UHGV virus genome: UHGV-1455077
DNA: 64,000 nt
From: a virus
Reading direction: 5' to 3' (one strand)
Of the stretch, positions 13,847 through 34,090 are shown piece by piece (within the stretch, counting starts at the first letter, position 1; each line of letters opens with the position of its first letter). Below the pieces are notes generated by a model that was not told where the DNA came from, searched no databases, and saw only the letters and a program-made list of their open reading frames with translations. The position numbers and the translations under genes were made by a program.

Positions 13847-13871
13847 TTATTGTTTTTTCAAAATTTTTAAG

Positions 13872-14010
13872 AATGGTGAGAAATTGATTTACATAGACTG
13901 GAAATCCGTGTGTAGAAAGTTCGATTCTTTCCCCATCGACCATTTAACGGTGGGTAGCTCATTGGTAGAGCAACGTAAAATGATAATCAATTGTTATGTT
14001 CCTTCTTAAT
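13872..14010 (+). ncRNA. structured tRNA-like RNA unit A (permuted)
   Basis: Order along the strand: aatggtgagaaattgatttacatag leader; T-arm GAAAG-TTCGATT-CTTTC; acceptor 3' strand CCCATCG-A-CCA; 5-nt spacer; acceptor 5' strand CGGTGGG; D-arm GCTC-ATTGGTA-GAGC. The unit is closed by AATTGATT (13882-13889) pairing with AATCAATT (13985-13992). Confidence 0.55.
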
Positions 14011-15642: not shown

Positions 15643-15673
15643 TTTATAAATTTAATATTATAAACATTTAAAT

Positions 15674-16704: not shown

Positions 16705-17021
16705 AAATGAGATATATGCCTAATGTTTTCGGTAAAAAATCAAGAAAACAAATGCCTAAATGGTCAAGACATATATCAATAGTCTGTGGTACCAAATTCC
16801 GTAAGGTTCAGCGGGAACTCCTGTATTTATACTTTCCTGCTGGTAAAAAGTTCAGTCATCGAACATAGAATGACCAAACCAGCGATAAAGGTGGAAAGCC
16901 TTTAACAATATATGTGTAGATATGGCGAAAGTTGGTAAAAGCTCCGAGTGATATTGGTTTTAGGTTGTTTGAATTTTGAAGGTTAAAATTCAATTCCTTT
17001 TTCTATGTATATAATTAATTT

Positions 17022-17097
17022 GGGTGTGTAACTTAATTGGTAGAGAAACTGACTCTTAATCAGTATGATGAGGGTTCGAGTCCCTCTGCACCCACCA
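17022..17097 (+). tRNA. tRNA-Lys (CTT)
   Basis: Acceptor GGGTGTG/TGCACCC; anticodon stem ACTGA/TCAGT; loop CTCTTAA; T-arm GAGGG-TTCGAGT-CCCTC; A73 then CCA. Confidence 0.75.
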
Positions 17098-17113
17098 ATA
17101 TGTAAATTTAATT

Positions 17114-17189
17114 GCACCCATAGGCTAATTGGACAAACCCAAAGTCTTCTAAACTTTTATTACAGGTTCGAGTCCTGTTGGGTGTGCCA
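17114..17189 (+). tRNA. tRNA-Arg (TCT)
   Basis: Acceptor GCACCCA/TGGGTGT; anticodon stem AAAGT/ACTTT; loop CTTCTAA; T-arm ACAGG-TTCGAGT-CCTGT; G73 then CCA. Confidence 0.7.
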
Positions 17190-17199
17190 TTTATAAAAA

Positions 17200-17337
17200 A
17201 TGATGAAACGGTGTGGCGGTGTACACGTCTGAAAGTAATAGACCTAGACTTTTAGTTTGAAAGTGAAAGCTAAACAAAGGTATTACCGTTAGAGGAAGTA
17301 AGAAGTCATTGGTTCAACTCCAATTTTCATCACAAAT
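17200..17337 (+). ncRNA. unusually long (~137 nt) tRNA-like element
   Basis: Perfect 7-bp acceptor pairing TGATGAA/TTCATCA flanks a T-arm (CATTGG-TTCAACT-CCAATT). No encoded CCA. The body is too long for a canonical tRNA. Confidence 0.35.
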
Positions 17338-17413
17338 GCTCGGTTAGTTCAGTTGGAAGAACACCGCTTTTACACAGCGGGGGTCGGCAGTTCGAACCTG
17401 TCACCGAGTACCA
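17338..17413 (+). tRNA. tRNA-Val (TAC)
   Basis: Acceptor GCTCGGT/ACCGAGT; D GTTC/GAAC; anticodon stem CCGCT/AGCGG; loop TTTACAC; T-arm GGCAG-TTCGAAC-CTGTC; A73 then CCA. Confidence 0.8.
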
Positions 17414-17422
17414 AAAAATATC

Positions 17423-17451
17423 TTGACAATAAATAAAATAAATTATATAAT
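17423..17451 (+). promoter_or_regulatory. consensus sigma70 promoter (TTGACA-17-TATAAT)
   Basis: tcttgacaataaataaaataaattatataat, immediately upstream of tRNA-Gln. Confidence 0.65.
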
Positions 17452-17461
17452 AAAGTTATAT

Positions 17462-17535
17462 TGGAAAGTCATCTAAGGGTAGGATAGCGGACTTTGACTC
17501 CGTTCATACTGGTTCGAATCCAGTCTTTCCAGCCA
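17462..17535 (+). tRNA. tRNA-Gln (TTG)
   Basis: Acceptor TGGAAAG/CTTTCCA; anticodon stem GCGGA/TCCGT; loop CTTTGAC; T-arm ACTGG-TTCGAAT-CCAGT; G73 then CCA. Confidence 0.7.
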
Positions 17536-17819
17536 TTTTTTAACTGGGGTTATGACTGTTATTCCCCATTCAGGTAAATGATACAGCTATTGTTATGAAG
17601 TAACACGTTGAGGAATACTATCGTGAAAAAGTATTGGTTTGTTGGTTATTTGTTAGATATGTCAAAGTTTTGGAATTCCCAAAAACCTGAAATCAACAGG
17701 GTATAATAAAACATCCTTGAGTTATATTAAGTTTGTCTTAAAGCATTTAATATAAACATTAAAGTTTTATTCGTGAATACTGAAACAATGTTAAGTACGT
17801 TAATCTTAACAATGTTAAT

Positions 17820-17911
17820 GGAATGTTACCCAAGTCTGGTGAAGGGGACTGTTTGCTAAACAGTTAGGAGCAGTAATGTTCGCAGAGGTTCAAATCCTCT
17901 ACATTCCGCCA
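17820..17911 (+). tRNA. tRNA-Ser (GCT), type II
   Basis: Acceptor GGAATGT/ACATTCC; anticodon stem ACTGT/ACAGT; loop TTGCTAA; long variable arm; T-arm AGAGG-TTCAAAT-CCTCT; G73 then CCA. Confidence 0.75.
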
Positions 17912-17941
17912 TTTTGAAAAATAATTTTTCAAAAAAAGTTC

Positions 17942-17970
17942 TTGACAATATAAATTAAATATATTATATT
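17942..17970 (+). promoter_or_regulatory. sigma70-like promoter
   Basis: aaaaagttcttgacaatataaattaaatatattatatt. Confidence 0.55.
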
Positions 17971-18374
17971 AAGTTCATAAGGAGTTACCATTAGTCCTTA
18001 AATCACAATCATAATGGCGTTAGAATATCACGAGACGATATTTGGTTTGTAGTTATCCAGAACTATAATGTCACAATACGGACATTTCGTAAATTTAAAA
18101 ACTGTATTGCGTGGCTGATTACCCATACCATTACGACAAGATGGTTAAAAAATTTAGGTTAAAATGTGATTCCTATAAATCAAAAAAGACATTCTTTTAC
18201 TATTTTAGAGTTAGAAAATAGCGTTCATAATTAGAGTGAAATTATCGGTGAATTTGATATTACATCGTGATAAAAAATATTGAAGGAAGGAAAACCGTGT
18301 TGAAACCTTATTTAATCATTGTTATAAATGATTCGTGGTGATTCAATAACTATTACGTGAATATAGTTTTTAAT

Positions 18375-18452
18375 AGGCTCGTGGTGTTAATGGTTGGCAC
18401 GTTCGCCTGATAAGCGAGAGGTTTGTGAGTTCGAATCTCACCGAGCCTACCA
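18375..18452 (+). tRNA. tRNA-Ile (GAT)
   Basis: Acceptor AGGCTCG/CGAGCCT; anticodon stem TTCGC/GCGAG; loop CTGATAA; T-arm GTGAG-TTCGAAT-CTCAC; A73 then CCA. Confidence 0.75.
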
Positions 18453-18487
18453 AATTAAAATTAATTTTTTGTGGGAGTATAAAATAA

Positions 18488-18700
18488 ATGCCAATGGAAA
18501 AGAAAGTTCTTACACAGGAAGAAAAAGAACTTAAAAAGAAAGAACAAGAATTTAATAAACATATGAATCAAGTATGGAAGCTAAGACCATATAAAATTAA
18601 TGGAATTTCTAAGAATGTTGGTAAAGCTCCAAAATGTAATACAAAAGTTAAAACTGAAAGACCAGTTGAAATGGTAAATCAGAAAAAGAAAAAGAAGTAA
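18488..18700 (+). CDS. small Lys-rich hypothetical protein
   Basis: 70-aa ORF with RBS gggagtataaaataaATG. Confidence 0.4.
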   Translation: MPMEKKVLTQEEKELKKKEQEFNKHMNQVWKLRPYKINGISKNVGKAPKCNTKVKTERPVEMVNQKKKKK

Positions 18701-18841
18701 TTAAAAAATATTTTTAATCGAAATTGAGTAAATCTTGAATATTTTATATTTGCAAGATAAATGCGATAGAGTAGCGAGAATCGAACGCTTGTAACAAATG
18801 TTCGGCTGTTAGAGTTCAGTATAAAAACTCATTTTTCTTAT

Positions 18842-18921
18842 TCTCTGGTAGCTAAACTGGTTGTAGCGGCGGTCTTATAAACCGTGTCTTTATGTGAGTT
18901 CAAGTCTCATCCAGAGAACCA
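18842..18921 (+). tRNA. tRNA with anticodon TAT (Ile, reads AUA)
   Basis: Acceptor TCTCTGG/CCAGAGA; D GCTA/TAGC; anticodon stem GCGGT/ACCGT; loop CTTATAA; T-arm GTGAG-TTCAAGT-CTCAT; A73 then CCA. Confidence 0.6.
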
Positions 18922-19319
18922 TTTTAAAAAATTTTTCAGAAATATATAAAATGGAACAAATGCTAGATAGTTCAATTCTATCAATCTTGTTAAAGATAAA
19001 GGACGGTATTTGAAAAGGTTTGAAGCCCATTATATTACTGAAATTTGGTTCAGACAATATCCATACAGCCGTATAACGTGTGGTGAGCCAATTAATTTAT
19101 GGGTCGCTCCCAATTAACGAATGGGTCTGATGACTTTTATAATTTTTCAATAAGAAAAAGTGTTGCAACAACCATTGATATAAAATCGTTTGCTAACAAG
19201 TTCGTGTATATCATATATGGTTAATAATGTTAGAGGAATAATTTGATATTTTGACTATGTAGAAAATATCCGATAGATTGGATAATCTTCATAAATCATT
19301 CGTTAAGTGATTATTTTAA

Positions 19320-19394
19320 TGCGGAATAGAGCAGAGGTAGCTTAACTGGCTCATAACCAGGAGGTCGGGCGGTTCGAATCCCCCTTCCGCAACA
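19320..19394 (+). tRNA. tRNA-Met (CAT), elongator-like; 3' end reads ACA rather than CCA
   Basis: Acceptor TGCGGAA/TTCCGCA (1:72 paired); D GAGC/GCTT; loop CTCATAA; body similar to bacterial Met tRNAs. Confidence 0.65.
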
Positions 19395-19497
19395 TCTAAC
19401 AAAAGCAAAACCTTTACGTGGTGTTAGATATAAGTAATTCGATTTGAATGAAACCAATTTGCTTAATTATTGAAAAATAGATATTTAAGGTTCAATA

Positions 19498-20163
19498 ATG
19501 TATTACCTAATTTATAAAATAACTAATAATGTAAATAATAAAATCTATATTGGAAAACATCAAACGGAAAATAAAGATGATGATTATATGGGTTCTGGAA
19601 AAATAATAAAAAGAGCTATTGAAAAATATGGTATAGATAAATTTACAAAAGAAATATTATATGAATGTAATTCATTAGAAGAAATGAATGAAAAAGAAGC
19701 AGAAATTGTTGATGAAGAATTTGTTGTTCGTTTAGATACATATAATATTAAATTAGGTGGTCAAGGTGGATGGGATTATGTCCATAAATATACTGATTGG
19801 AATGGATTTAAATATATAAATTCACAAAAGTTAAATAATAAATCGAATCAGTATAAAATATCTGCTGAAAAACTTAAAAATGATGAAAAATATGCAAAAG
19901 AATTTTCTTTAAAAATTTCTAATGGATTAAAATTATATTACCAATTACATAATAATCCATTTAAAGGGAAAAAACATACAATTGAATCAAAAATAAAAAT
20001 TGGTAAAGCAAATGCTATTAAACAAGCTGGTGAAGGAAATTCCAATTATGGAAAATGTTGGATTTATAATGAAGAATTAAAAGAAAATAAATCTATTAAA
20101 AAAGAAAATTTACAATCTTGGTTAGAGAAAGGTTGGAAAAAAGGGAGAAAAATGAAATTTTAA
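19498..20163 (+). CDS. GIY-YIG homing endonuclease
   Basis: N-terminus YYLIYKITNNVNNKIYIGKH...YMGSG matches the GIY-YIG motif. Embedded in the tRNA cluster. Confidence 0.8.
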   Translation: MYYLIYKITNNVNNKIYIGKHQTENKDDDYMGSGKIIKRAIEKYGIDKFTKEILYECNSLEEMNEKEAEIVDEEFVVRLDTYNIKLGGQGGWDYVHKYTDWNGFKYINSQKLNNKSNQYKISAEKLKNDEKYAKEFSLKISNGLKLYYQLHNNPFKGKKHTIESKIKIGKANAIKQAGEGNSNYGKCWIYNEELKENKSIKKENLQSWLEKGWKKGRKMKF

Positions 20164-20294
20164 ATTATTTATATAATTTAATTTTTTACTGGTAGGTACG
20201 AAGATAGCTCAAATACCTCGTTAAACTAAATAGTCGTGCTATCCGCAAACCTTTAGGAAGTAAATGGCGTTATAAGTAACTTCCTGTTTATAAT

Positions 20295-20369
20295 GGCAAT
20301 GTAGTGAAAAGGTTATCACGACTGACTCATATTCAGTAATTTCAAGTTCGATTCTTGACATTGCTACCA
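20295..20369 (+). tRNA. tRNA with anticodon CAT (Met, or Ile2 if lysidinylated)
   Basis: Acceptor GGCAATG/CATTGCT (G1.U72); D GTGA/TCAC; anticodon stem ACTGA/TCAGT; loop CTCATAT; T-arm TCAAG-TTCGATT-CTTGA; A73 then CCA. Confidence 0.65.
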
Positions 20370-20399
20370 TTCATTATTAACTTGTGGGATATTAATTTA

Positions 20400-21563
20400 A
20401 TGACAAATTACATTATAAATAATAATATCGTCAGAATTTTTGGCGAAGATGAAATCAATATTAAACCAGAAATTCCATTAGGAACATATTTGGTTAAAGA
20501 AAATGAATTAACAGGTGAATTGTTTTTAGAAAGAACAGCAGATTTTGTAAAGCCTGAAAAAATATATGGAGAATGTGAATTCCAATCTGAACGAATTATT
20601 AAAACATTTAAAGACAGACCTAATAATACTGGAGTTCTTTTAAATGGTGCAAAAGGTTCAGGAAAAACATTTTTAACTAAGTATATTTCCTATAAGCTTT
20701 TAAAAGATAATTATCCAACAATAATTATTAATGATATATTTAGTCCAACAAAGTTATCTTTATTAATTCAAACAATTAGTGAACCTTGTGTCATTATTTT
20801 TGATGAATTTGAAAAAATTTATCAATCAAATAAAAAAGATGATTTGCAAAACCCACAGAATGGTTTACTTTCATTGCTTGATGGTTTATTTCAAACTAAA
20901 AAGCTATTCATCTTTACTTGTAATGATGATAGTAATATTTCAGATTTGATGAAGAATAGACCTGGTAGAATTTTTTATAAATTGGAATTTAAAGGAATTA
21001 CTGAAAAAACAATTGAAGAATATTGTGAAGAAAAATTAAATAATAAATCATATATTTCTCAAATTTTTAGTATTCGTAAAATGATTAAAGATTTTACCTT
21101 TGATATTTTACAAGCAATTGTTGAAGAAGTTAATCGTTATAATGAAACTCCTTTAGATGTTGTTAAAATGCTTAATGTAACTCCAGAATCTTTATATGCA
21201 AAATATACTGTATCAATTAAGCCATTAAAGAATCAACAAATTGTAAAATTTGAAAAATCTTTATGGGTAAATCCATTATCTTCAGAAGAAGAATCAGTAT
21301 GGATTTATAGAACTAAAACATCAAATGCAGATGATAATAAATATGTTGTTGAAGACGAGGATATTAAAATTTGTGAGCTTAGTTGTGAAACTGATGATGA
21401 TGAAGATAATAATGTTAAAACAGTTACTGATTATTTTCCAGTATCATTGCTTACAATGGTATCATCTAACAAAAATACTTATGTGTATCAGAATGAAGAA
21501 TATCAGGTTACTTTAACTAAAAAGATTATTGATACTGATGATATGTGGAAGTATGCATTTTAA
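20400..21563 (+). CDS. AAA+ family ATPase (start moved to MTNYIINN; the track start at 20355 overlaps the tRNA)
   Basis: Walker A GAKGSGKT and Walker B IIFDEFE. Confidence 0.7.
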   Translation: MTNYIINNNIVRIFGEDEINIKPEIPLGTYLVKENELTGELFLERTADFVKPEKIYGECEFQSERIIKTFKDRPNNTGVLLNGAKGSGKTFLTKYISYKLLKDNYPTIIINDIFSPTKLSLLIQTISEPCVIIFDEFEKIYQSNKKDDLQNPQNGLLSLLDGLFQTKKLFIFTCNDDSNISDLMKNRPGRIFYKLEFKGITEKTIEEYCEEKLNNKSYISQIFSIRKMIKDFTFDILQAIVEEVNRYNETPLDVVKMLNVTPESLYAKYTVSIKPLKNQQIVKFEKSLWVNPLSSEEESVWIYRTKTSNADDNKYVVEDEDIKICELSCETDDDEDNNVKTVTDYFPVSLLTMVSSNKNTYVYQNEEYQVTLTKKIIDTDDMWKYAF

Positions 21564-21859
21564 AAAATTATTGACATATAAAAAATATTATGTTAATTGT
21601 TATAACAAAAGGGAAAATAAAAAACGCCCCTCTGTTAGAAATATATGAGTAGAAATAACAAGTCGTTAAGAAGATTCGCCTTATCTAACAAGGTTAAAGA
21701 GTTTTTTCCTAAAGATGATTTAGGTTTGATGATAAATCAGTAAAAAATATATTGACATATGTTAATTATTATGATATATTTAATTATATTTTAATTTTAA
21801 GTAATATATTAAAATCATTTAATAATTGGTTGGCAAGACCAATAGGATGCCTTTTTAAG

Positions 21860-22330
21860 GCAATGAAAGTAAAATCTTTCTTTTAATATATGAAGATAAA
21901 TTATGTCGTGAATGATTTAGTCGGAGAGATAAGCGACTAAGATAAAATAAAAAAATCTCAAATTCCATAGACGTATGGACGGCATAATAAATTAAATTGT
22001 TGTAACTCAAACAATGGGTAGCCTGCCCATAAGAGTATGCTGGATAATCTGAAAAGATTTGAAGGTAGTTGTGAGTAATACGAATCATAAGGTTGAAATA
22101 GCCACGGTTGGCTAACCGTGAGTGACGTAAGAACCAGACAAATCGTACAGATGAATAGGTCTGATGGCTGTATCTGGTTGGGAGTAGTCATTCTCCCCAT
22201 CCATTAAGCAAAGGAGTAATTAACCTTTGTGGGTGTGACTGAATAATGTGTCGTATGAGGGGCTTGTTGGTAGTCAGGAGTCCAACCAATAATTTAATTT
22301 TAACAGTTTGTGGCAGTCGTTCTGTTTAAA
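21860..22330 (+). ncRNA. GC-elevated structured noncoding region, candidate large ncRNA or ribozyme
   Basis: About 450 nt with no credible ORF and locally GC-rich paired segments (gggtagcctgccc..., ccacggttggctaaccgtg..., gggagtagtcattctcccc). Follows two TTGACA promoters at 21571 and 21752. Confidence 0.3.
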
Positions 22331-22353
22331 AACTCTGCCTTTTTAAACAAACA

Positions 22354-22455
22354 GATAGTGATTATTAGATTTACATAGTTCGATTCTATATTTTTTCATA
22401 TAAAAAGGAAAAATGCCAAAAGGGTGGCGTTTACAATCTAATGAATTTTCTTCTG
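22354..22455 (+). ncRNA. structured RNA unit B (ATAGTGA leader, reduced core with T-loop)
   Basis: gatagtgattattagatttacatag + TTCGATT ...; closing stem ATTAGATT/AATCTAAT. Confidence 0.45.
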
Positions 22456-22472
22456 TTTATTTAAAAATTTTC

Positions 22473-22545
22473 GATAGTGAGTATAAGATTTACATAGACC
22501 AGACTTTTAATCTGACATTTACAAAATCTTATAGATTGTTCTTCG
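22473..22545 (+). ncRNA. structured RNA unit C
   Basis: gatagtgagtataagatttacatag + hairpin CAGA-CTTTTAA-TCTG; closing stem TATAAGATT/AATCTTATA. Confidence 0.45.
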
Positions 22546-22564
22546 AATTAATACTTTTTTGTGA

Positions 22565-22662
22565 ATAGTGAGATATTAGGTTTACATAGCTAAAGTGGTT
22601 AAAGCATTTGACTTGAAATCAAAGTATTGTAGGTTCGATTCCTACTGTAATTTTAACTTAAT
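22565..22662 (+). ncRNA. structured RNA unit D, containing a complete class-I tRNA-like fold with anticodon TGA (22580-22653)
   Basis: Leader aatagtgagatattaggtttacatag. tRNA-like: acceptor GTTTACA/TGTAATT (one U-U), D GCTA/AAGC, anticodon stem TTTGA/TCAAA, loop CTTGAAA, T-arm GTAGG-TTCGATT-CCTAC. Closing stem TATTAGG/CTTAATA. Confidence 0.5.
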
Positions 22663-22727
22663 AAAATGTTCTTTCACAAATTTAATTATTTGACACTTTA
22701 TTATAAATGTTATATAAATAATAATAT

Positions 22728-22813
22728 GGAAGGTAACTGGCTGGATGAAGACACCGACTTGAAATCGGCTGGGCGTAACTGCTTTGGGGGTTCGAGTCCC
22801 TCACCTTCCGCCA
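22728..22813 (+). tRNA. tRNA-Ser (TGA), type II
   Basis: Acceptor GGAAGGT/ACCTTCC; loop CTTGAAA; long variable arm; T-arm GGGGG-TTCGAGT-CCCTC; G73 then CCA. Confidence 0.7.
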
Positions 22814-22820
22814 TTTTTAT

Positions 22821-23514
22821 TTGGTATTGTGGGATATGATAAAAGTAAGTAGAAAAGAATACGAAAATAATCCAGAAAAATATATTATATATTGTACAAA
22901 ATGTAAAAAACCAATAATATTTAAAGATTATAGACATTATTGTGATAGAGTTAATAAAATTAATATTAGACATCATCAACCATTTTGTTCAAAAGAATGC
23001 TCATATGAATATCATAGATTATTTACAAATAAAGGAATTTGTGATTTTTGTGGTAAAGAGTTTATTAGACAAAATGTTTATGGGGATAAAAGACAAAAAC
23101 ATACATTTTGTTCACAAAAATGTTCTGCAAAATATTTTAATAGTCATAAAAAATTTGGTTATAGAAAATCAAAAGCTGAAGAATATATTGTAAGTCAATT
23201 AAAAAAAAGATTATCCGTATTTAAATATTAAAGAAAATGATGTATCAACAATAGGTAAAGAACTTGATATTTATTTACCAGATTTAAATTTAGCATTTGA
23301 AATTAATGGTATAGTTCATTATAAACCTATATATGGAAAAGAAAAGTTAAATAAAATACAAAATAATGATTTTTTTAAAAAAGAATTATGTGAAAGTAAA
23401 AATATTTTATTGACAATAATTAATATAAGTGATATAAAAGTATTTAAAGAGAATTTAATTATAAATAAATATAATTACATTAAAGAAATTATAAGTAATA
23501 CAATGCCACGATAG
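22821..23514 (+). pseudogene. frameshifted homing-endonuclease-like gene: Zn-ribbon N-terminal ORF (22821..23231) plus endonuclease-like continuation in another frame (~23233..23514)
   Basis: N-terminal ORF has CxxC pairs (CTKCKK, CSKECSYEYH, CDFCGKEF, CSQKCS). The downstream frame encodes KELDIYLPDLNLAFEINGIVHYKP..., a Vsr/DUF559-type endonuclease core motif, with no ATG of its own. Confidence 0.5.
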
Positions 23515-23580
23515 CTCAACTGGCAGAGCAACCGATTTGTAATCGGTAGGTTGGGGATTCGACTTCCTCTCGTGGCACCA
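23505..23580 (+). tRNA. tRNA-Thr (TGT)
   Basis: Acceptor GCCACGA/TCGTGGC; D GCTC/GAGC; anticodon stem ACCGA/TCGGT; loop TTTGTAA; T-arm GGGGA-TTCGACT-TCCTC; A73 then CCA. Confidence 0.8.
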
Positions 23581-23711
23581 GATTTTAATAAGCTCCCCCG
23601 CTAAAGATACTTTGTGTATACAGCGAATATGGGTCAAAGTTTAAACTTTGCATTAAATTATAATAATTGTACAATAAAAAATTATGTGAGCATTTTTTAA
23701 TTTTGTATGGT

Positions 23712-23790
23712 AATAGTGACTTAAAGAATTACATAGATAACTGATTATTGTCTGCCAAAACAAGAAATTCTTTAAAATTATTCTTTACCA
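23712..23790 (+). ncRNA. structured RNA unit E
   Basis: taatagtgacttaaagaattacatag...; closing stem TTAAAGAATT/AATTCTTTAA (10 bp). Confidence 0.45.
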
Positions 23791-23805
23791 TTTAAACTAT
23801 TTTAG

Positions 23806-23945
23806 CAATAGTGAGAAAAGGATTTACATAGGTTTGTAACCCGTTGGTAATTGGTTCGAATCCAATCAAGTAATTGAAATATATTATTTGTAGCTCATTG
23901 GTAGAGCAACGATAAAAAATAATCCTTTATTATGTTCTTTGCTAA
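23806..23945 (+). ncRNA. structured tRNA-like RNA unit F (permuted, same architecture as unit A)
   Basis: Leader caatagtgagaaaaggatttacatag; T-arm ATTGG-TTCGAAT-CCAAT; acceptor 3' CAAGTAA. A few nt downstream, acceptor 5' TTATTTG (7/7 complementary) and D-arm GCTC-ATTGGTA-GAGC. Closing stem AAAGGATT/AATCCTTT. Confidence 0.55.
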
Positions 23946-23953
23946 CAAATATT

Positions 23954-24062
23954 TGGTGATAGTGATTAATTAGGTTTACATAGCTTAATGGTTAGAGCAT
24001 TGATTTAACACATCAAACGTTACAGGTTCAACTCCTGTTGTAATTAATACCTAATTTACTAT
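23954..24062 (+). ncRNA. structured RNA unit G, containing a complete class-I tRNA-like fold (23974-24046) with anticodon loop TTAACAC
   Basis: Leader tgatagtgattaattaggtttacatag; acceptor GTTTACA/TGTAATT; D GCTT/GAGC; anticodon stem TTGAT/ATCAA; T-arm ACAGG-TTCAACT-CCTGT; closing stem TAATTAGG/CCTAATT. Confidence 0.5.
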
Positions 24063-24082
24063 TCTTCACCAGTTCAATTTTG

Positions 24083-24115
24083 CACCCAAGAACATATGTT
24101 CTTGGGTATTTTTTT
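24083..24115 (+). terminator. rho-independent terminator closing the tRNA/ncRNA island
   Basis: cacccaagaacatatgttcttgggtattttttt. Confidence 0.8.
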
Positions 24116-24125
24116 ATATAAGTTA

Positions 24126-24155
24126 TTGACAAATCATCTATAAATGAAGTATATT
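24126..24155 (+). promoter_or_regulatory. sigma70-like promoter
   Basis: ttgacaaatcatctataaatgaagtatatt. Confidence 0.5.
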
Positions 24156-24181
24156 AATAAAAAACGTAAAAAGAGGTAAAA

Positions 24182-24481
24182 ATGAGCTATATTACAAATG
24201 AAGATGAACATCAACATATGACATTGTTTGTCTATTTTCCTTGTTCATTAGGTTATGAATGTGCAAAAATTATATTGCAACCTGGTGAGAAATTTTTTGC
24301 TAATGATGATGAAATTATTATGAAAATAGATAATAATAAAAATCCATTAAATAAAGATTTTGTAGGAATTAAAAACGGTGTTTTATATGCTGTTGGTCAA
24401 GAAATATATAAATTAGGAATGTTTAGAGAAAAACCTAAACAAATGACATTTGCCACGACAATGTTTAAATATACAGAATAA
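24182..24481 (+). CDS. hypothetical protein
   Basis: 99-aa ORF with RBS aagaggtaaaaATG. Confidence 0.45.
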   Translation: MSYITNEDEHQHMTLFVYFPCSLGYECAKIILQPGEKFFANDDEIIMKIDNNKNPLNKDFVGIKNGVLYAVGQEIYKLGMFREKPKQMTFATTMFKYTE

Positions 24482-24505
24482 ATTAATTATAAGGATTAAT
24501 AAATT

Positions 24506-24688
24506 ATGGATTATAATGAAGAATGGACTTTAGCTGATATTGATAATAATCACGATACACAGATGCTCAATGAATATTTTTCACAAAAAAGTATTAAAGA
24601 AAGAATATTAGAAAATAAAGAAAAATATCGTGCAGAACAAATACTTAAAACTAAAATGATTAAAGAAAATTTAGGTCAAAAAAGATAA
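24506..24688 (+). CDS. hypothetical protein
   Basis: 60-aa ORF. Confidence 0.35.
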   Translation: MDYNEEWTLADIDNNHDTQMLNEYFSQKSIKERILENKEKYRAEQILKTKMIKENLGQKR

Positions 24689-24760
24689 AAAAAGTAGTTG
24701 ACTAATAAAACTAAAAATGTTATAAAAACAATGTAAAATTAACTTATGGAGTGTTGAAAA

Positions 24761-26047
24761 ATGAAAACAAATAAAGCTGAAAAGAAACCAGCAATTTACA
24801 CTAATGAAGGTGGTAAAGCATCTCATATTAGTGATTTAGAAGAATTGAAAAGAGCAACAATGTCTTGTTTGCTTTGGGAAGATAACTTCTATGAAGATGG
24901 TGTATCAATTGCTGACAGAATTACCTCTTTAGTTAAAAATTGTATTGATAAAGGTCATTATGATGATGTAATTGATATTTTGAAAACTGTAAAATTTGAT
25001 ATGAGATTACGTCATTGTCCATTGTGGATGATTGTTGCAATTTATAAAGCAGGTAAAACTATTGATAAGAATGTTATTGCATCTATTCTTACAAGACCAG
25101 ATGATATGGGAGAATTACTTTCTCTTTATCGTAAAGACCAAGCAAATGCACCTATTCCAAATGCTATGAAAAAAGCTATGGCTATTGCCATTACTAAATT
25201 TGATGAATATCAATTGGCTAAATGGAATCGTGATGCTAATTACAAATTGGTTGATATTGTAAACATTTGTCATCCACAAGTAACTGAAGCTATTGATAAG
25301 TTGGTTAAAGGAACTTTAGAAACTCCAAAAACTTGGGAAGTTCTTCTTTCTGCCGCTGGTTCTGATAAAGAAAAGAAAAAAGAAGCTTGGTTGGATTTGA
25401 TTGAAACTAATAAATTACCTGATATGGCTCTTTTGAAGAATATTCGTGGTATGTTGGATGTAGGTGTTTCTAAAAACACATTGGTTGACCGTATTAATAA
25501 TATTAAAAATGGTAGATTATTGCCAATTGATTATATTAGAGCGGCAAATACAAATCCATCATTGGAAAATGAAATTGAAAAGAAATTCTTAAATTGCTTT
25601 GAAAAACCTTCTTTGAATGGTAAGACTGCAATTTTAGTAGATGTGTCAGGTTCTATGGATGGAGAAAGATTAAATTATGCAAATGCATTAGCGATGATTG
25701 GTCGTGAAATGTGTGAAAATGTTGATATTTACTCATTCTCTAATGAAGTCAAATTCATTCCAAATCGTAGAGGATTTGCTTTAGCAGAAGCTATTGATAA
25801 ATCACAATACCATAATGGAACTTATATGTGGGATGCTATTAGTACAGTTGAAAAAGCTCATTACGATAGATTAATTGTTATTACTGATGAGCAAACAATG
25901 GGTATGCCACACAACGCAGTTATTAAAAATGCATACATTATTAATGTTGCACCATATAATAAAGGTGTTGGTTACAATAATGGTTACAAACATATTAATG
26001 GTTTTTCAGATAAAGTATTTAATTATATTACTGAAATTGAAAAATAA
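24761..26047 (+). CDS. rsr: Ro60/Rsr-like protein (TROVE-like N-terminal region plus C-terminal vWA domain with MIDAS)
   Basis: N-terminal LKRATMSCLLWEDNFYEDG resembles the Ro60 LHRFLCFGSEGGTYY region. C-terminal AILVDVSGSMDG (DxSxS MIDAS) and a vWA-like fold. Size (428 aa) is appropriate. Confidence 0.6.
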   Translation: MKTNKAEKKPAIYTNEGGKASHISDLEELKRATMSCLLWEDNFYEDGVSIADRITSLVKNCIDKGHYDDVIDILKTVKFDMRLRHCPLWMIVAIYKAGKTIDKNVIASILTRPDDMGELLSLYRKDQANAPIPNAMKKAMAIAITKFDEYQLAKWNRDANYKLVDIVNICHPQVTEAIDKLVKGTLETPKTWEVLLSAAGSDKEKKKEAWLDLIETNKLPDMALLKNIRGMLDVGVSKNTLVDRINNIKNGRLLPIDYIRAANTNPSLENEIEKKFLNCFEKPSLNGKTAILVDVSGSMDGERLNYANALAMIGREMCENVDIYSFSNEVKFIPNRRGFALAEAIDKSQYHNGTYMWDAISTVEKAHYDRLIVITDEQTMGMPHNAVIKNAYIINVAPYNKGVGYNNGYKHINGFSDKVFNYITEIEK

Positions 26048-26084
26048 TTAAATAAATATAATAAACAAACCCGATAGGCTTCTT

Positions 26085-26160
26085 ATTTAATGAGTAGTAT
26101 GGGTATATTGGTTAAAGTTAGACTTGCCCCCCTCTGCTACTCACATCAATAAATGCTTCT
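26085..26160 (+). ncRNA. candidate Y-RNA-like stem-loop immediately downstream of the Ro60-like gene
   Basis: GAGTAG-TAT-GGGTA...TGCCC-CCCTCTG-CTACTC: two helices separated by an asymmetric internal loop. The next 240 nt are noncoding. Confidence 0.35.
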
Positions 26161-26404
26161 CGTTAGTCCACGAAGATTAACCGCCTAGATATTGATGAGT
26201 TTAAATACAGCACAATTATCTTTCTGGAATTGACCAGATAAGTTTATTAATATTCCTAGGTTCAATTAATAAATGGGTAGATTTATTTTTAACTTAATAA
26301 ATTCCAATCAAAAAATTTAATTATAAGTATTAAAATATAAGTTGGAGTTTAGTGTTAATTAATTTAACAAGAAGGATTGATTTCTTTCTTGTTAAATTAT
26401 TTTT

Positions 26405-26641
26405 GTGAAAAAGGATATGAAAATGTTAAATTTGAAAAGTATTTTAAATGATAATATGAGAGTTAAATTTGATTTTTATCGTGATGGTGCTTTATGGTAT
26501 TCAACAATGAATGGGTTTCAATTTCCTGTTCCTGTGAGAACTTTAGCCGCAACATCAATATTAAAAGCTAATGATAAAGCAACAGCATTCAGTTATTATA
26601 TTAAAAAATACTATAATGAATTAAATAAAAATAAGGAATAA
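26405..26641 (+). CDS. hypothetical protein
   Basis: 78-aa ORF. Confidence 0.4.
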   Translation: MKKDMKMLNLKSILNDNMRVKFDFYRDGALWYSTMNGFQFPVPVRTLAATSILKANDKATAFSYYIKKYYNELNKNKE

Positions 26642-26646
26642 TTTTT

Positions 26647-27066
26647 ATGAAAATGCAATTTTATGTTAGTACAAAAGAAATAAGTGAAAATAATTATTTG
26701 TATGGTGTAATGTCAATGATTAATGATGAACCATTTGATTTTATTGTTGGTCAAATGAATGGAGAAAAGGATGATATTATTAATTTAATATCTAAAAATA
26801 CATTGATAAAAAATAAAACAGTATTGAAAAATAATTATTATACTTTTAAATATGAGGATTTATATACAACAAAAAAAATGTTATCAAAATTTCATACAGA
26901 TGATTTTTATAAATCATATTCAAAAGAACAGCAAACTGATTTAGATGCTTTGCCAGCATTATTTCTTTCGGATACAACAAAAATGATGCCATTAAATAAA
27001 AAGATGAATAATTATAAACAAATGCTTCAATATTATCAGATAACAAAAGAAAAAAATCGGAAATAA
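26647..27066 (+). CDS. hypothetical protein
   Basis: 139-aa ORF followed by a terminator. Confidence 0.45.
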   Translation: MKMQFYVSTKEISENNYLYGVMSMINDEPFDFIVGQMNGEKDDIINLISKNTLIKNKTVLKNNYYTFKYEDLYTTKKMLSKFHTDDFYKSYSKEQQTDLDALPALFLSDTTKMMPLNKKMNNYKQMLQYYQITKEKNRK

Positions 27067-27083
27067 AAAATCCGATTTTTTTC
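27053..27083 (+). terminator. rho-independent terminator
   Basis: aaaatcggaaataaaaaatccgatttttttc, followed directly by promoter ttcttgacag. Confidence 0.75.
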
Positions 27084-27085
27084 TT

Positions 27086-27147
27086 GACAGTTAATTTTTT
27101 TATGTTATATTGACCTTATCTTAAACAATTAAAGGAATATAACAATG
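27086..27147 (+). promoter_or_regulatory. sigma70-like promoter plus leader, related to the 9543/29536 repeat
   Basis: ttgacagttaatttttttatgttatattgaccttatcttaaacaattaaaggaatataacaATG. Confidence 0.5.
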
Positions 27148-27219
27148 ATTTATCTTTTCTTTGCCTGCGTAATTTTTTTCATTATTTTTAATGATTCTAT
27201 TGGTTAATGGAGAAAAATT

Positions 27220-27459
27220 ATGAAATGGTACACACAACAAGATATGCCTTATGGAAAAGACCCAATTGTGATTAAAACAATTGATAAACAAATATTTGTT
27301 GGTAATCATCAACATATCCATAATTCAAGTCTTAAGCATAAATTTAAGAATGAAGAACAATGGGTATTAACGACTAATCAAAATAAAATTGAATGGTCAA
27401 AGGTTAAAGAATGGCATTATGTTCGTAAATTTATTGAAGTAATAGAAAGGAATTTTTAA
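27220..27459 (+). CDS. hypothetical protein
   Basis: 79-aa ORF. Confidence 0.4.
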   Translation: MKWYTQQDMPYGKDPIVIKTIDKQIFVGNHQHIHNSSLKHKFKNEEQWVLTTNQNKIEWSKVKEWHYVRKFIEVIERNF

Positions 27460-27460
27460 A

Positions 27461-27730
27461 ATGTCAAATTATCTAATAATGGTCTATGGTTTTTCTCATT
27501 GGACTTGGATTTACGATTTTAAAAATAAAAAATGGGATAGATTTAATTGGTGTAATAAAAACGCTAATGAAAAATTTATTGAAGTTGTTAAAACTCATCA
27601 TACTTTATTTTTTAATGCAACTGAAATGGAAGAAGCATATACAAAATTTGATGAAGATGAACTTGAATATATGGGTTTTGAAAATCCTAATTGGAAAGAT
27701 TTTGTAAAGGTTGTTAGTTATGTTTGTTAA
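27461..27730 (+). CDS. hypothetical protein
   Basis: 89-aa ORF. Confidence 0.4.
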   Translation: MSNYLIMVYGFSHWTWIYDFKNKKWDRFNWCNKNANEKFIEVVKTHHTLFFNATEMEEAYTKFDEDELEYMGFENPNWKDFVKVVSYVC

Positions 27731-28070
27731 AAAAATATTGATTTTTTGGATTACATTAATTACACTTGTTTTATGTATTTCTATAAGTGAAGCTAATGCA
27801 AAATATGTTATTGCATCAAGTTATCAATATTCAACTGATGATTTTGCAACACTTATAGAAATTTCTGAATTAAAAGGTTGCCAATTAAAAGGTAATATTT
27901 TTAATATTTCAAATAATGTAATTGGTATATTAATGGAATGTCCTCATAATTTTGATTATGATAAAATCTTTGAAAGATATATGGAAATTATGGATAATGA
28001 ACATATGGAAATTATGGATAATGAACATATTAAAATTGAAATGCCACGAGATATAGGAAGATTTCTATAA
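27711..28070 (+). CDS. secreted or membrane protein (signal peptide) with a short internal tandem repeat
   Basis: Hydrophobic N-terminus ILIFWITLITLVLCISISEANA; 24-nt direct repeat encoding MEIMDNEH twice. Confidence 0.4.
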   Translation: MLVMFVKKILIFWITLITLVLCISISEANAKYVIASSYQYSTDDFATLIEISELKGCQLKGNIFNISNNVIGILMECPHNFDYDKIFERYMEIMDNEHMEIMDNEHIKIEMPRDIGRFL

Positions 28071-28082
28071 ATATTTTAACAA

Positions 28083-28171
28083 TGGTGGACGTAGCCAAGT
28101 TGGTCGAAGGCGTTAGATTGTGGCTCTAATACATTAGAAACATCGTGGGTTCGAATCCCACCGTTCACCCC
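28083..28171 (+). tRNA. tRNA-His (GTG) with G-1 and C73, unusually long variable region
   Basis: G(-1) + acceptor GTGGACG/CGTTCAC + C73 + CCA; anticodon stem TTAGA/TCTAA; loop TTGTGGC; 15-nt variable region; T-arm GTGGG-TTCGAAT-CCCAC. Confidence 0.55.
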
Positions 28172-28174
28172 AGA

Positions 28175-28252
28175 TGGCTCGTTAGGCGAATTGGCATAGC
28201 CGTCTGTCTTAGGTACAGATGTTTGGGGGTTCGAGTCCCTCACGAGCTACCA
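28175..28252 (+). tRNA. class-I tRNA with anticodon TAG (would decode CUA Leu, but lacks the long variable arm)
   Basis: Acceptor GGCTCGT/ACGAGCT (G1.U72); anticodon stem GTCTGT/ACAGAT; loop CTTAGGT; 5-nt variable loop; T-arm GGGGG-TTCGAGT-CCCTC; A73 then CCA. Confidence 0.5.
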
Positions 28253-29542: not shown

Positions 29543-29617
29543 ATTTTTCCTATTGACAAGTAATTTTTATATGTTATATTAACCTTATCAAAAACAACAA
29601 TGAAAGGTTAATAAGAT
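29536..29617 (+). repeat. promoter and 5'UTR module, copy 2 (identical to 9543-9624)
   Basis: 82 bp identical, including TTGACA, -10, leader hairpin and RBS. Confidence 0.7.
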
Positions 29618-33526: not shown

Positions 33527-34090
33527 ATGAATAATATAACATTTATTTCTAATGGTAATGTAAAAGATTACCCAAGTCAACCTGTTAGTTATACATTAAC
33601 TTGGAAAAGACAAACAATAAATTTTAATAAGGAAACAGAAATGCAAGATAAAATTTTAAACGCTTATAAGCAGGCAGTTAAAGAAAATGATTTTTGGAGA
33701 AAGAAAGTTTTAACTACTTTACGCTCTGAAATTAAAAATATGGAAATTATGCTTCGTCCAAAAAATTTAACACCAACTGATGCAGATATTCTTTGTGTTA
33801 TTCAAAAAATTATTAAACAAGATAAAGAAGCACTTGGTATGTTTATTGAAAGTGGACGACAAGATTTGATTGATGCAACTAATACTGAAATTACAATTCT
33901 TGAAGAATTTTTACCAACACAATTAACAAATGATGAAATTGATAATATCATCAAACAAGAAATTGAAAATAATAGCTATTCATCAATGAAAGATATGGGC
34001 AAATTGATGGGATATTTTAAGAATAATTATTCTGGTCAATGTGATATGGGATATGTATCTAAGAAAATTAAGGAGATGTTAAATGGATAA
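33527..34090 (+). CDS. GatB/YqeY-domain protein
   Basis: C-terminal pattern TILEEFLPTQLTNDEIDNIIKQEI...MKDMGKLMGYFKNNYSGQCDMGYVSKKIKEML matches the YqeY / GatB C-terminal domain. Confidence 0.5.
   Translation: MNNITFISNGNVKDYPSQPVSYTLTWKRQTINFNKETEMQDKILNAYKQAVKENDFWRKKVLTTLRSEIKNMEIMLRPKNLTPTDADILCVIQKIIKQDKEALGMFIESGRQDLIDATNTEITILEEFLPTQLTNDEIDNIIKQEIENNSYSSMKDMGKLMGYFKNNYSGQCDMGYVSKKIKEMLNG

What the first reader, a model, noticed from the sequence alone, without database searches (positions are those of the whole stretch)
24761..26400. Phage-encoded Ro60/Rsr-like protein with a candidate Y-RNA-like hairpin downstream
The 428-aa ORF has an N-terminal region resembling the Ro60 TROVE module and a C-terminal vWA domain with the DVSGSMDG MIDAS motif. 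That domain architecture is characteristic of Ro60/Rsr. Bacterial and phage Rsr genes are normally accompanied by tRNA-like Y RNAs (YrlA). Directly downstream is 350 nt of noncoding sequence. It starts with a bulged stem (GAGTAG/CTACTC and GGGTA/TGCCC, separated by an asymmetric internal loop). The same genome region also carries a family of tRNA-like permuted RNA units (next finding).
Basis: partly seen in the sequence, partly recalled or inferred. Interest (0 to 1): 0.8.

Follow-up and report, generated by a model that had tools for sequence, protein, structure and literature searches.

The report
Phage Ro60 gene; Y RNAs lie upstream
The 428-aa gene is a genuine phage copy of the ring-shaped RNA-binding protein Ro60, a kind already known in phages. 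Its tRNA-like partner "Y RNAs" are encoded upstream, and the hairpin noticed downstream is an optional insert in a different, undescribed small structured RNA.

Summary
ORF 24761-26047 (428 aa) hits Pfam TROVE at 63.6 bits against a cut-off of 23. Its AlphaFold model matches only Ro60 structures at full length, with phage phiLo Ro60 best. The MIDAS residues are invariant in 29 homologues. The 357 nt downstream are non-coding and the GAGTAG/CTACTC hairpin exists.

The Y-RNA reading of that hairpin fails. Rfam gives no hit at E<=10. A clade-tuned Y-RNA model scores it -0.2 bits. The hairpin is absent from five of the related phages compared.

The Y-like RNAs lie upstream on the same strand as seven units. 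Two of them (13867-14009, 23802-23945) hit Rfam YrlA at full model length, at 42.5 and 35.4 bits; Caulobacter phage CcrColossus, a phage reported to carry Y-like RNAs, gives a hit at 42.3 bits. Of 76 other phage TROVE loci, 67 carry such units, with 128 hits upstream and 14 downstream.

The downstream spacer holds a separate conserved four-helix RNA, which I call R1 (26064-26284). Fourteen of its 26 pairs covary, and one loop keeps a palindrome whose sequence changes between phages. R1 matches no Rfam family and occurs only in this phage clade. Its function is unknown.

Verdict: a new member of a known kind, with one possibly new small RNA.

The parts
24698..24726 (+). Promoter-like site for the Ro60 gene: TTGACT, 17 nt spacer, TATAAA. 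GGAG lies 8 nt before the ATG.
   Evidence: Read from the sequence. It is a member of the repeated promoter-like family D4 (24688-24739). The promoter scanner did not list it because the -10 hexamer ends in A. Inferred.
24761..26047 (+). Phage Ro60/Rsr homologue (TROVE HEAT-repeat ring plus vWA domain), 428 aa.
   Evidence: Pfam TROVE 63.6 bits. PHROG 850 'RNA-binding protein', E 1.7e-28. Full-length PDB sequence hit to phiLo phage Ro60 9kop/9l5y, E 1.9e-13. AF2 model pLDDT 88.3. The top 13 Foldseek PDB hits are all Ro60/Rsr, TM 0.63-0.71.
25640..25654 (+). Codons for the MIDAS motif D294-V-S296-G-S298.
   Evidence: D294, S296, S298, T354 and D376 are invariant in 29 homologues.
26064..26284 (+). 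R1: a conserved structured RNA with a four-helix junction. P1 is ACCC 26069-72 / GGGT 26275-78. P2 is GATAG 26073-77 / TTATC 26216-20. P3 is 26224-37. P4 is 26243-73.
   Evidence: Alignments A3, A4 and A8. 92.8% of cells are paired, 14 of 26 pairs change on both sides, and 0 of 500 shuffles reach that. No Rfam match.
26092..26142 (+). It is a lineage-specific insert in the apical loop of P2 of R1.
   Evidence: Present in the window, L002-4, L042 and L178. Absent in L039, L040, L041, L182, L184, L177 and L183. Scores -0.2 bits with Y-RNA model R2.
26144..26197 (+). Second insert hairpin (CATCAATA / TATTGATG), found only in this phage.
   Evidence: A 52-nt insertion relative to L002-4. Folds at -11.6 kcal/mol, z = -2.85.
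26224..26237 (+). P3 hairpin of R1: CTGG, loop AATTGA, CCAG.
   Evidence: The closing pair is C-G, U-A, G-C or A-U in different phages.
26243..26273 (+). P4 hairpin of R1: a 9-bp stem and a 13-nt loop carrying the palindrome CCTAGG (26255-26260).
   Evidence: Six different 6-8-nt palindromes occupy the same loop in the homologues.
26285..26359 (+). Remnant of a second conserved module (R1b) that is intact in relatives.
   Evidence: About 60 nt are deleted relative to L002, L039, L040 and L041. The palindromic-loop hairpin is lost.
26360..26404 (+). Intrinsic terminator: a 17-bp stem, a 6-nt loop and a T run. It ends the Ro60-R1 transcript.
   Evidence: Terminator scan. Conserved in L002-4 and L042.
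23802..23945 (+). U6: a YrlA-type Y-like RNA. Order of elements: basal stem, T-arm, acceptor-like stem-loop, D-arm. It is 816 nt upstream of the gene.
   Evidence: Rfam YrlA 35.4 bits, full model, E 1.5e-6 locally. R2 115.7 bits. Covariation in A9.
23954..24071 (+). U7: the same basal module enclosing a complete cloverleaf tRNA (anticodon AAC, 23974-24046).
   Evidence: R2 42.8 bits.
23707..23791 (+). U5: a short unit with the basal module only.
24084..24116 (+). Terminator hairpin plus T run. It closes the U5-U6-U7 transcription unit.
   Evidence: Read from the sequence. Inferred.
22351..22678 (+). U2, U3 and U4: three tandem units with the same basal module. U4 encloses a 76-nt tRNA with anticodon UGA.
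   Evidence: R2 39.7 and 34.6 bits.
13867..14009 (+). U1: a second YrlA-type Y-like RNA. Its acceptor-like stem is followed by ACCA.
   Evidence: Rfam YrlA 42.5 bits, E 4.8e-6. R2 109.9 bits.

Best explanation
The ORF encodes a phage Ro60/Rsr protein: a HEAT-repeat ring closed by a vWA domain with an intact metal site.

Its RNA partners are most likely the seven Y-like RNAs encoded upstream on the same strand (U1-U7). All seven share a basal stem with a conserved asymmetric internal loop: 5' U-R-G-U-G-A and 3' U-(G/A)-U-U-C-Y. I take this loop to be the protein-binding site, by analogy with other Y RNAs. The units carry different heads. Two are YrlA-type permuted tRNA-like domains, two are whole tRNAs and three are short hairpins.

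By analogy with D. radiodurans Rsr-Y RNA-PNPase and with Thermus phage phiLo Ro60-Yrl, the ribonucleoprotein would act on structured or damaged RNA during infection. It may do so by recruiting a host exoribonuclease. This step is inferred, not shown.

The 357-nt spacer downstream is not a Y RNA. It carries R1, an independent small RNA of about 105 nt in its minimal form, folded as a four-helix junction. In this phage R1 has no promoter of its own, so it is probably made as the 3' tail of the Ro60 transcript, which ends at the terminator 26360-26399.

I take R1 to be a trans-acting stable RNA of the phage's tRNA/Y-RNA cluster. It probably pairs with itself through the palindromic P4 loop. Whether it works with Ro60 is open.
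For: Protein.
- TROVE 63.6 bits.
- Full-length sequence match to the solved phage Ro60.
- AF2 model pLDDT 88.3.
- Foldseek top 13 hits are all Ro60/Rsr.
- MIDAS residues are invariant.

Upstream Y-like RNAs.
- Rfam YrlA full-length hits at 13890-14003 (42.5 bits) and 23817-23931 (35.4 bits). A CcrColossus locus hit scores 42.3 and Xanthomonas phage Tabio 52.1. CcrColossus is named as a phage with Y-like RNAs in PMC12135203.
- In a 16-sequence alignment across distant phages, 96.3% of cells are paired, 25 of 33 pairs change on both sides, and 0 of 500 shuffles reach that.
- 21 units in 7 genomes have 19 distinct outer stems and 16 distinct inner stems. All are complementary, and the R:Y pair covaries in 21 of 21.
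- 67 of 76 independent TROVE loci carry such units, all on the gene's strand. 128 hits lie upstream and 14 downstream, at a median of 70 nt from the start codon.

Downstream element.
- No Y-RNA signal.
- The hairpin is an insert.
- R1 structure is supported by covariation.
- G-U pairs in P2 and P4 fit the + strand only.
- R1 sits behind its own TTGACC-N17-TATACT/TATTAAT promoter and upstream of the gene in L177 and L183. It lies between two tRNAs in L179.
- The P4 loop palindromes change sequence but stay palindromic.
Against: - Binding of any of these RNAs by the protein is not shown.
- The window units lack the GNCGAA(N)G motif that defines bacterial YrlA. Their Rfam scores are below the curated cut-off of 69.
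- The nearest unit is about 690 nt from the gene, with two small ORFs and a terminator between. The median distance elsewhere is 70 nt.
- The basal module could be an RNA-processing stem rather than a Ro60 site.
- The R1 covariation counts come from an alignment fitted to the model. Only about 8 distinct R1 sequences exist.
- R1 was not found near the Ro60 gene in 76 other phages, so a link to Ro60 is unproven.
- About 12% of TROVE loci (9 of 76) do have Y-like units downstream, so the position alone was not an unreasonable lead.
Confidence: 0.75

Rival explanations
1. One reading: the downstream hairpin, or the spacer as a whole, is a divergent Y RNA homologous to YrlA/Y RNAs and is bound by the Ro60 protein.
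For: It lies on the same strand, directly after the gene. It is well folded. In 9 of 76 phage TROVE loci Y-like units do lie downstream.
Against: No Rfam Y_RNA or YrlA hit at E<=10. The clade-tuned model R2 gives -0.2 bits for the hairpin and at most 5.5 bits anywhere in 25900-26600 with filters off. It has no T-arm, no D-arm, no URGUGA/UGUUCY loop and no TTACATAG box. The hairpin is absent from five related phages that keep the gene.
Confidence: 0.03
2. R1 is not homologous to Y RNAs but is a lineage-specific additional RNA ligand or regulator of the Ro60 particle. For example, it could be a dimeric scaffold bringing two rings together.
For: R1 is always transcriptionally linked to the module. 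It is the 3' tail of the Ro60 mRNA in 7 genomes. It shares one promoter-terminator unit with the YrlA-type RNA in L177. It lies just upstream of the YrlA unit in L183. Its palindromic loop suggests homodimers. phiLo Ro60-Yrl2 forms dimeric assemblies (PMC12135203).
Against: R1 shares no motif with the Y-like units. It is absent within 3 kb of the gene in 76 other phages and in 14 further loci. In L179 it sits among tRNAs 3 kb away. Linkage could simply reflect membership of one stable-RNA gene cluster.
Confidence: 0.25
3. The spacer is a cis-acting element rather than a trans-acting RNA. It could be a 3'-UTR stabiliser or translational operator of the Ro60 mRNA, a leader of the next gene (26405), or a DNA-level protein-binding palindrome.
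For: There is no terminator between the stop codon and R1, and no convincing promoter in front of R1 in this clade. The loops are palindromic.
Against: In L177, L183 and L179 R1 is detached from the Ro60 mRNA and has its own promoter or lies in a tRNA operon. The p78 gene is absent there, and the p139 homologue lies on the other side. A protein site would keep its sequence, but the palindrome changes six times. G-U pairs are strand-specific.
Confidence: 0.12
4. The shared basal module of U1-U7 is a maturation signal for the phage's stable RNAs, such as a double-strand-specific nuclease site. It is not the Ro60 binding site, and the linkage with the gene is only synteny.
For: The module flanks very different cargos, including two real tRNAs. 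The canonical GNCGAA motif is missing.
Against: Only 2 of about 23 tRNAs carry it. The same module (UGGCGUAG ... UGUUCC) flanks the YrlA-type RNAs of CcrColossus and Tabio and of 67 of 76 TROVE loci, always next to the gene and on its strand. Its place in the RNA corresponds to the Ro-binding stem of known Y RNAs.
Confidence: 0.15

Closest known systems
Thermus phage phiLo Ro60 with Yrl1/Yrl2 (PDB 9KOP, 9L5Y; PMC12135203)
   Same: It is a phage-encoded TROVE+vWA ring protein and the best sequence and fold match. Its Y-like RNAs are encoded upstream of the gene on the same strand, and there are several of them per locus.
   Different: About 20-22% identity, and 500 aa against 428 aa. The phiLo RNAs were picked by a CGAA motif in a bulge, whereas here the loop is URGUGA/UGUUCY. 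No binding or PNPase data exist for this phage.
YrlA RNAs of bacteria and phages (Rfam RF02553; Chen et al. 2014, PMC4201824), including Caulobacter phage CcrColossus
   Same: U1 and U6 have the defining order: basal stem, T-arm, acceptor-like stem-loop, D-arm. They lie on the gene's strand, and U6 is within 4 kb. The protein is 37% identical to the CcrColossus TROVE protein. Their Rfam scores match that of a CcrColossus locus hit.
   Different: Scores are below Rfam's gathering score. The GNCGAAN0-1G motif is replaced. There is an extra outer stem. The phage has seven units with three kinds of head, two of which are complete tRNAs.
Deinococcus radiodurans Rsr-Yrn1-PNPase (RYPER) and Salmonella rsr-yrlBA-rtcBA
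   Same: Same protein fold (2nvo) and the same logic of a ring protein plus a tethering RNA.
   Different: No rtcB/rtcA or other RNA-repair gene was found among the genes checked next to the ORF. The setting is a lytic-phage tRNA array.
Kissing-loop dimerising RNAs (the HIV-1 DIS hairpin, as I recall it)
   Same: R1's P4 is a hairpin whose loop carries a 6-8-nt self-complementary sequence. The sequence varies between lineages but stays palindromic.
   Different: No sequence or overall structural relation. Dimerisation of R1 is inferred only.

Membership tests
Ro60/Rsr (TROVE + vWA) proteins | TROVE domain profile match above the curated cut-off | tested here: met
   PF05731 63.6 bits against 23.
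Ro60/Rsr (TROVE + vWA) proteins | Full-length fold of a HEAT-repeat ring closed by a vWA domain | tested here: met
   AF2 model pLDDT 88.3. The 13 best PDB matches are Ro60/Rsr chains, TM 0.63-0.71, probability 1.0.
Ro60/Rsr (TROVE + vWA) proteins | MIDAS motif DxSxS...T...D in the vWA domain | tested here: met
   D294, S296, S298, T354 and D376 are invariant in 29 homologues. The vWA Pfam profiles themselves are below cut-off.
Ro60/Rsr (TROVE + vWA) proteins | Binds Y RNA or misfolded RNA | not testable with these tools
   Needs RIP or EMSA.
Y RNA / YrlA: downstream hairpin 26092-26142 and spacer | Match to the Rfam Y_RNA or YrlA covariance models | tested here: not met
   No hit at E<=10 in 25950-26500.
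Y RNA / YrlA: downstream hairpin 26092-26142 and spacer | tRNA-like T-arm and D-arm, and a basal stem with a conserved loop, as in phage Y-like RNAs | tested here: not met
   R2 with filters off gives -0.2 bits for the hairpin and at most 5.5 bits elsewhere in 25900-26600. No TAGTGA...ACATAG pattern.
Y RNA / YrlA: downstream hairpin 26092-26142 and spacer | Conserved together with the Ro60 gene | tested here: not met
   The hairpin is absent in L039, L040, L041, L182 and L184.
YrlA: upstream units U1 and U6 | Rfam RF02553 match at or above the gathering score | tested here: not met
   42.5 and 35.4 bits against 69, but over the full model length with E 4.8e-6 and 5.3e-4 in 64 kb. A CcrColossus locus hit scores 42.3.
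YrlA: upstream units U1 and U6 | Order of elements: stem, T-arm, acceptor-like stem-loop, D-arm, stem, with tRNA-like T and D loops | tested here: met
   Alignment to the model. Covariation in all helices.
YrlA: upstream units U1 and U6 | GNCGAAN0-1G motif near the 5' end (PMC4201824) | tested here: not met
   The window units have U(A/G)GUGAG. Distant phage units have UGGCGUAG, one mismatch from the motif.
YrlA: upstream units U1 and U6 | Within 4 kb of the Ro60 gene, on the same strand, and not a tandem-tRNA artefact | tested here: met
   U6 is 816 nt upstream and U1 is 10.8 kb upstream. Neither overlaps a predicted tRNA.
Any described RNA family: R1 | Match to one of the 4227 Rfam models | tested here: not met
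   Window version and minimal version L040 5280-5600: nothing better than E 0.58, and none of the weak hits falls on R1.

The most novel reading that the evidence does not exclude
R1 would be a new class of small phage RNA: a four-helix junction that homodimerises through a palindromic loop and tolerates modular hairpin inserts. It would work together with an expanded, modular Y-RNA set in which the Ro60-binding stem is grafted onto permuted tRNA domains, onto whole tRNAs and onto short hairpins. This would give the phage a Ro60-based system for handling tRNAs or damaged RNA during infection.
Probability: 0.25. Interest if true: 0.65.

Novelty: new member of a known kind. Interest (0 to 1): 0.4.

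Why it matters
Phage Ro60-Y RNA particles are known. Chen et al. 2014 report likely Y RNAs in 22 bacteriophages. A phage Ro60 structure with two Y-like RNAs and host PNPase recruitment was published in 2025. So the gene itself is not a surprise.

What this locus adds has three parts.
- It corrects where the partner RNAs are.
- It gives a covariation-backed consensus for phage Y-like RNAs that detects them in 67 of 76 viral TROVE loci. Rfam's curated cut-off misses all those tested here, so current annotation under-calls them.
- It identifies a clade-specific structured RNA (R1) with an evolving palindromic loop, plus Y-type stems that enclose complete tRNAs.

The last two points are cheap to test by Northern blot, native gel and EMSA. 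They bear on what phage Ro60 particles actually recognise.

Tried and rejected
- Rfam at the gathering threshold over the window found only tRNAs. NCBIfam gave nothing for the protein.
- Nucleotide search of 24000-27500 against 50,697 phage records gave one irrelevant 109-nt hit.
- A 16-mer from the spacer searched in IMG/VR gave 25 hits, but only the window's own contig and three close relatives were real.
- A loose gapped pattern in metagenomes gave 120 or more loci, almost all by chance. Only 3 were real, and all were near-identical to known ones. My one metagenome scan was largely wasted on this.
- A stricter R1 pattern gave 0 viral hits and 8 genome hits, of which 1 was real: L184, a 283-kb contig of a bin labelled 'uncultured bacterium', presumably phage.
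- The single-sequence MFE of the spacer differs from the comparative fold, so I did not use it for the model.
- MAFFT misaligned the divergent R1 copies, so I counted pairs on the model-based alignment instead.
- The model R1 could not bridge the 113-nt inserts in the window copy and reported 26179-26284 only. I set the 5' boundary (26064) from the alignment.
- I considered that U1 and U6 might be tandem-tRNA artefacts and rejected it. The acceptor-like segment is a closed 7-8-bp hairpin and no tRNA overlaps it.
- I considered that R1 might be a leader of the next genes and rejected it.
- Pfam on nine neighbouring ORFs gave nothing informative.
- R1 was not found in 90 other TROVE loci.
Full report
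**Observation.**
The window carries ORF 24761-26047 on the + strand (428 aa). It is preceded by a TTGACT-N17-TATAAA promoter-like site that belongs to a repeated family. It is followed by 357 nt with no ORF above 26 aa. The hairpin GAGTAG/CTACTC with inner GGGTA/TGCCC is at 26092-26142 and folds modestly better than shuffles (z -2.4). The spacer as a whole is well folded (z -6.5), holds the local G+C peak and ends in a strong intrinsic terminator at 26360-26399.

**The protein.**
- Pfam TROVE scores 63.6 bits against a cut-off of 23. The vWA profiles are sub-threshold.
- PHROG 850 'RNA-binding protein' matches end to end.
- The only solved relatives by sequence are 9KOP/9L5Y, E 1.9e-13 over residues 14-427. 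These are the Ro60 of Thermus phage phiLo (PMC12135203).
- An AlphaFold2 model from 29 homologues has pLDDT 88.3 and pTM 0.78.
- Its 13 best PDB matches are all Ro60/Rsr chains: phiLo, Xenopus, human and D. radiodurans, with TM 0.63-0.71. vWA domains follow only after those.
- The MIDAS residues D294, S296, S298, T354 and D376 are invariant.
- Homologues at 31-41% identity occur in RsoM2USA, Xanthomonas phages, CcrColossus, Brevundimonas jumbo phages and crAss001.
- More than 5000 metagenomic proteins match at E<=1e-10.

The protein is a Ro60/Rsr family member. That some jumbo phages carry TROVE proteins with a tRNA-like partner is already noted in PMC7824862.

**Is the downstream hairpin a Y RNA?**
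Rfam with permissive filters over 25950-26500 returns no Y_RNA or YrlA hit at E<=10. Comparison with relatives is decisive. I fetched loci encoding proteins 60-86% identical. Five genomes (L039, L040, L041, L182, L184) keep the gene and the spacer but lack the hairpin entirely. The window has a further private 52-nt hairpin at 26144-26197. The hairpin is therefore an optional insert, not a conserved partner RNA.

**Where the Y-like RNAs are.**
A whole-window Rfam scan at E-value threshold gives two full-length YrlA (RF02553) matches on the + strand. They are at 13890-14003 (42.5 bits, E 4.8e-6) and 23817-23931 (35.4 bits, E 5.3e-4). Neither overlaps a tRNA. The alignment shows the basal stem, a GGTTCGAATCC T-arm, a closed acceptor-like stem-loop and a near-perfect TAGCTCA..GGTAGAGC D-arm.

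Both scores are below Rfam's cut-off of 69, but so are those of comparable phage loci. The best YrlA hit in the CcrColossus locus scores 42.3, and Xanthomonas phage Tabio gives 52.1 and 37.3. CcrColossus is named among phages with Y-like RNAs in PMC12135203. In eight distant IMG/VR loci, five have such hits 57-145 nt upstream of the gene.

**A seven-member family.**
Both window hits belong to a larger family. The pattern TAGTGA-N5-16-ACATAG occurs six times against 0.08 expected, and a seventh copy has TGGTGA. Each unit has the same layout:
- an outer stem;
- a 5' loop U-R-G-U-G-A;
- an inner stem;
- the box TTACATAG;
- a variable head;
- the inner stem 3' strand;
- a 3' loop ending U-(G/A)-U-U-C-Y;
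- the outer stem 3' strand.

The units are U1 13867-14009, U2 22351-22456, U3 22470-22547, U4 22560-22678, U5 23707-23791, U6 23802-23945 and U7 23954-24071. In 21 units from 7 genomes the stems are complementary but differ in sequence (19 distinct outer, 16 distinct inner). The loop R pairs with the loop Y in 21 of 21 (A-U or G-C). CcrColossus and Tabio RNAs show the same module as UGGCGUAG ... UGUUCC.

**Covariation and the R2 model.**
A 16-sequence alignment across these phages gives a consensus with 96.3% of cells paired. Shuffled controls give 67.9% and slid registers 39-49%. Of 33 pairs, 25 change on both sides. The model built from it (R2) finds U6, U1, U7, U3 and U4 in the window.

**Survey of other loci.**
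In 76 further viral TROVE loci, 67 have R2 hits at E<=1e-4. All are on the gene's strand, with 128 hits upstream and 14 downstream. The median gap to the start codon is 70 nt, with a median of 2 and up to 6 units per locus. So the rule is 'several Y-like RNAs just upstream'. A downstream position does occur (9 loci), but it is not what is found here.

**What the spacer holds.**
After removing the inserts, a core of about 105 nt aligns in all clade members. RNAalifold folds it into a four-helix junction:
- P1: ACCC/GGGT.
- P2: GATAG/TTATC. Its apical loop takes the inserts.
- P3: CTGG-AATTGA-CCAG.
- P4: a 9-bp stem with a 13-nt loop.

A model of it (R1) also finds copies upstream of the gene in L177 and L183, behind their own TTGACC-N17-TATACT/TATTAAT promoters. 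In L177 R1 shares one transcription unit with the YrlA-type RNA. A further copy lies between tRNA-His and tRNA-Ser in L179. On 10 sequences, 92.8% of cells pair and 14 of 26 pairs change on both sides, with 0 of 500 shuffles reaching that. Slid registers give 22-45%. The caveat is that this alignment was fitted to the model.

G-U pairs in P2 and P4 point to an RNA read from the + strand. The P3 closing pair takes all four Watson-Crick forms.

The P4 loop always carries a palindrome, but a different one in different lineages: CCTAGG, CCATGG, GATGCATC, TCTAGA, ACCGGT and TACTAGTA. This pattern fits loop-loop self-pairing better than a protein site. A second module after R1, with CAGCTG/CATATG loops, is intact in relatives but mostly deleted in the window.

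R1 matches no Rfam family, either in its window form or in its minimal form. It is absent from 90 other TROVE loci. It does not travel with the downstream genes.

**Mechanism.**
- Shown: the fold and motifs of the protein; the structure, conservation and placement of the Y-like units; the structure of R1.
- Inferred from established Ro60 biology (Stein 2005 as cited in PMC4201824; PMC12135203): the ring binds the basal stem-loop of the units. The tRNA-like heads engage tRNA-recognising enzymes or an exoribonuclease.
- Inferred from sequence: the Ro60 gene and R1 form one transcript, from the 24698 promoter to the 26399 terminator. U5-U7 form another, ending at the terminator at 24084-24116.
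- The role of R1 is a guess. I favour a trans-acting stable RNA of the stable-RNA cluster. I put roughly one chance in four on it working with the Ro60 particle.

**Verdict.**
The protein call is right and is a new member of a known kind. The Y-RNA call for the downstream hairpin is wrong, and the real Y-like RNAs are the upstream units. The spacer contains a previously undescribed, clade-restricted structured RNA that deserves a separate look.

Noticed in passing
window 22560-22678 (U4) and 23954-24071 (U7); also L002 2832-2948 and 3759-3874, L041 607-724, L042 1166-1282: Complete cloverleaf tRNAs (Rfam tRNA 59-61 bits; anticodons UGA, AAC, UUU) sit inside the same Y-RNA-type basal stem and loop as the YrlA-type units. 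None has an encoded CCA. They look like Y RNAs whose head is a whole tRNA.
   Followed up: partly
window 22727-22815: A type-II tRNA with acceptor GGAAGGT/ACCTTCC, anticodon UGA, a long variable arm and an encoded CCA. ARAGORN missed it and it appears only as a sub-threshold tRNA-Sec hit (30.7 bits). It is probably the real tRNA-Ser(UGA). The 76-nt 'tRNA-Ser tga' inside U4 lacks the long arm.
   Followed up: no
window 26255-26260 and the homologous loops in L039, L040, L041, L177, L179, L183: The P4 loop of R1 keeps a 6-8-nt palindrome whose sequence changes between phages (six versions). This suggests RNA self-dimerisation.
   Followed up: yes
L002 5470-5600, L039, L040, L041, L182, L183 2985-3090; window 26285-26359: A second conserved module (R1b) follows R1. 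One of its hairpins has the loop U-CAGCUG-UUC or U-CAUAUG-UUC, again a palindrome. About 60 nt of it are deleted in the window.
   Followed up: partly
L194 (Bacteroides phage crAss001) 4351-5255: A 906-nt non-coding gap lies directly downstream of the crAss001 TROVE gene. It contains a 144-nt match to the tRNA model (4624-4767, 46.6 bits). No YrlA hit was found in that locus.
   Followed up: no
window 12441-28252: A 16-kb array of 21 (ARAGORN) to 23 (Rfam) tRNA genes, all on the + strand. It is interspersed with a SegE-like GIY-YIG ORF (19498-20163) and an AAA/STAND NTPase ORF (20355-21563). The Ro60 gene sits inside this array.
   Followed up: partly
window 11370-12010, 17413-17983, 21557-21776, 23400-23447, 24688-24739, 27076-27128, 29545-29597: A repeated promoter-like family: A-tract, (T)TCTTGACAA, about 17 nt, then TATAA. 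One copy lies immediately before the Ro60 gene and another before the tRNA-Thr/U5-U7 block.
   Followed up: partly
L038 66-1439, L039 3-1394, L182 2252-3628: An IS605 OrfB/TnpB (Cas12f-like) gene is inserted upstream of the Ro60 gene in some relatives. In these loci no Y-like units are found within 4 kb.
   Followed up: no
L007 3576-3705: A sub-threshold tmRNA-model hit (26.2 bits, E 1.2e-6) lies just upstream of a distant TROVE gene, next to its Y-like unit.
   Followed up: no
window 548-1702 and L194 6622-7320: An SPFH/Band-7 protein gene lies in the same genome region as the TROVE gene, both here and in crAss001. A YqeY-like gene (33527-34090) is shared with L040.
   Followed up: no
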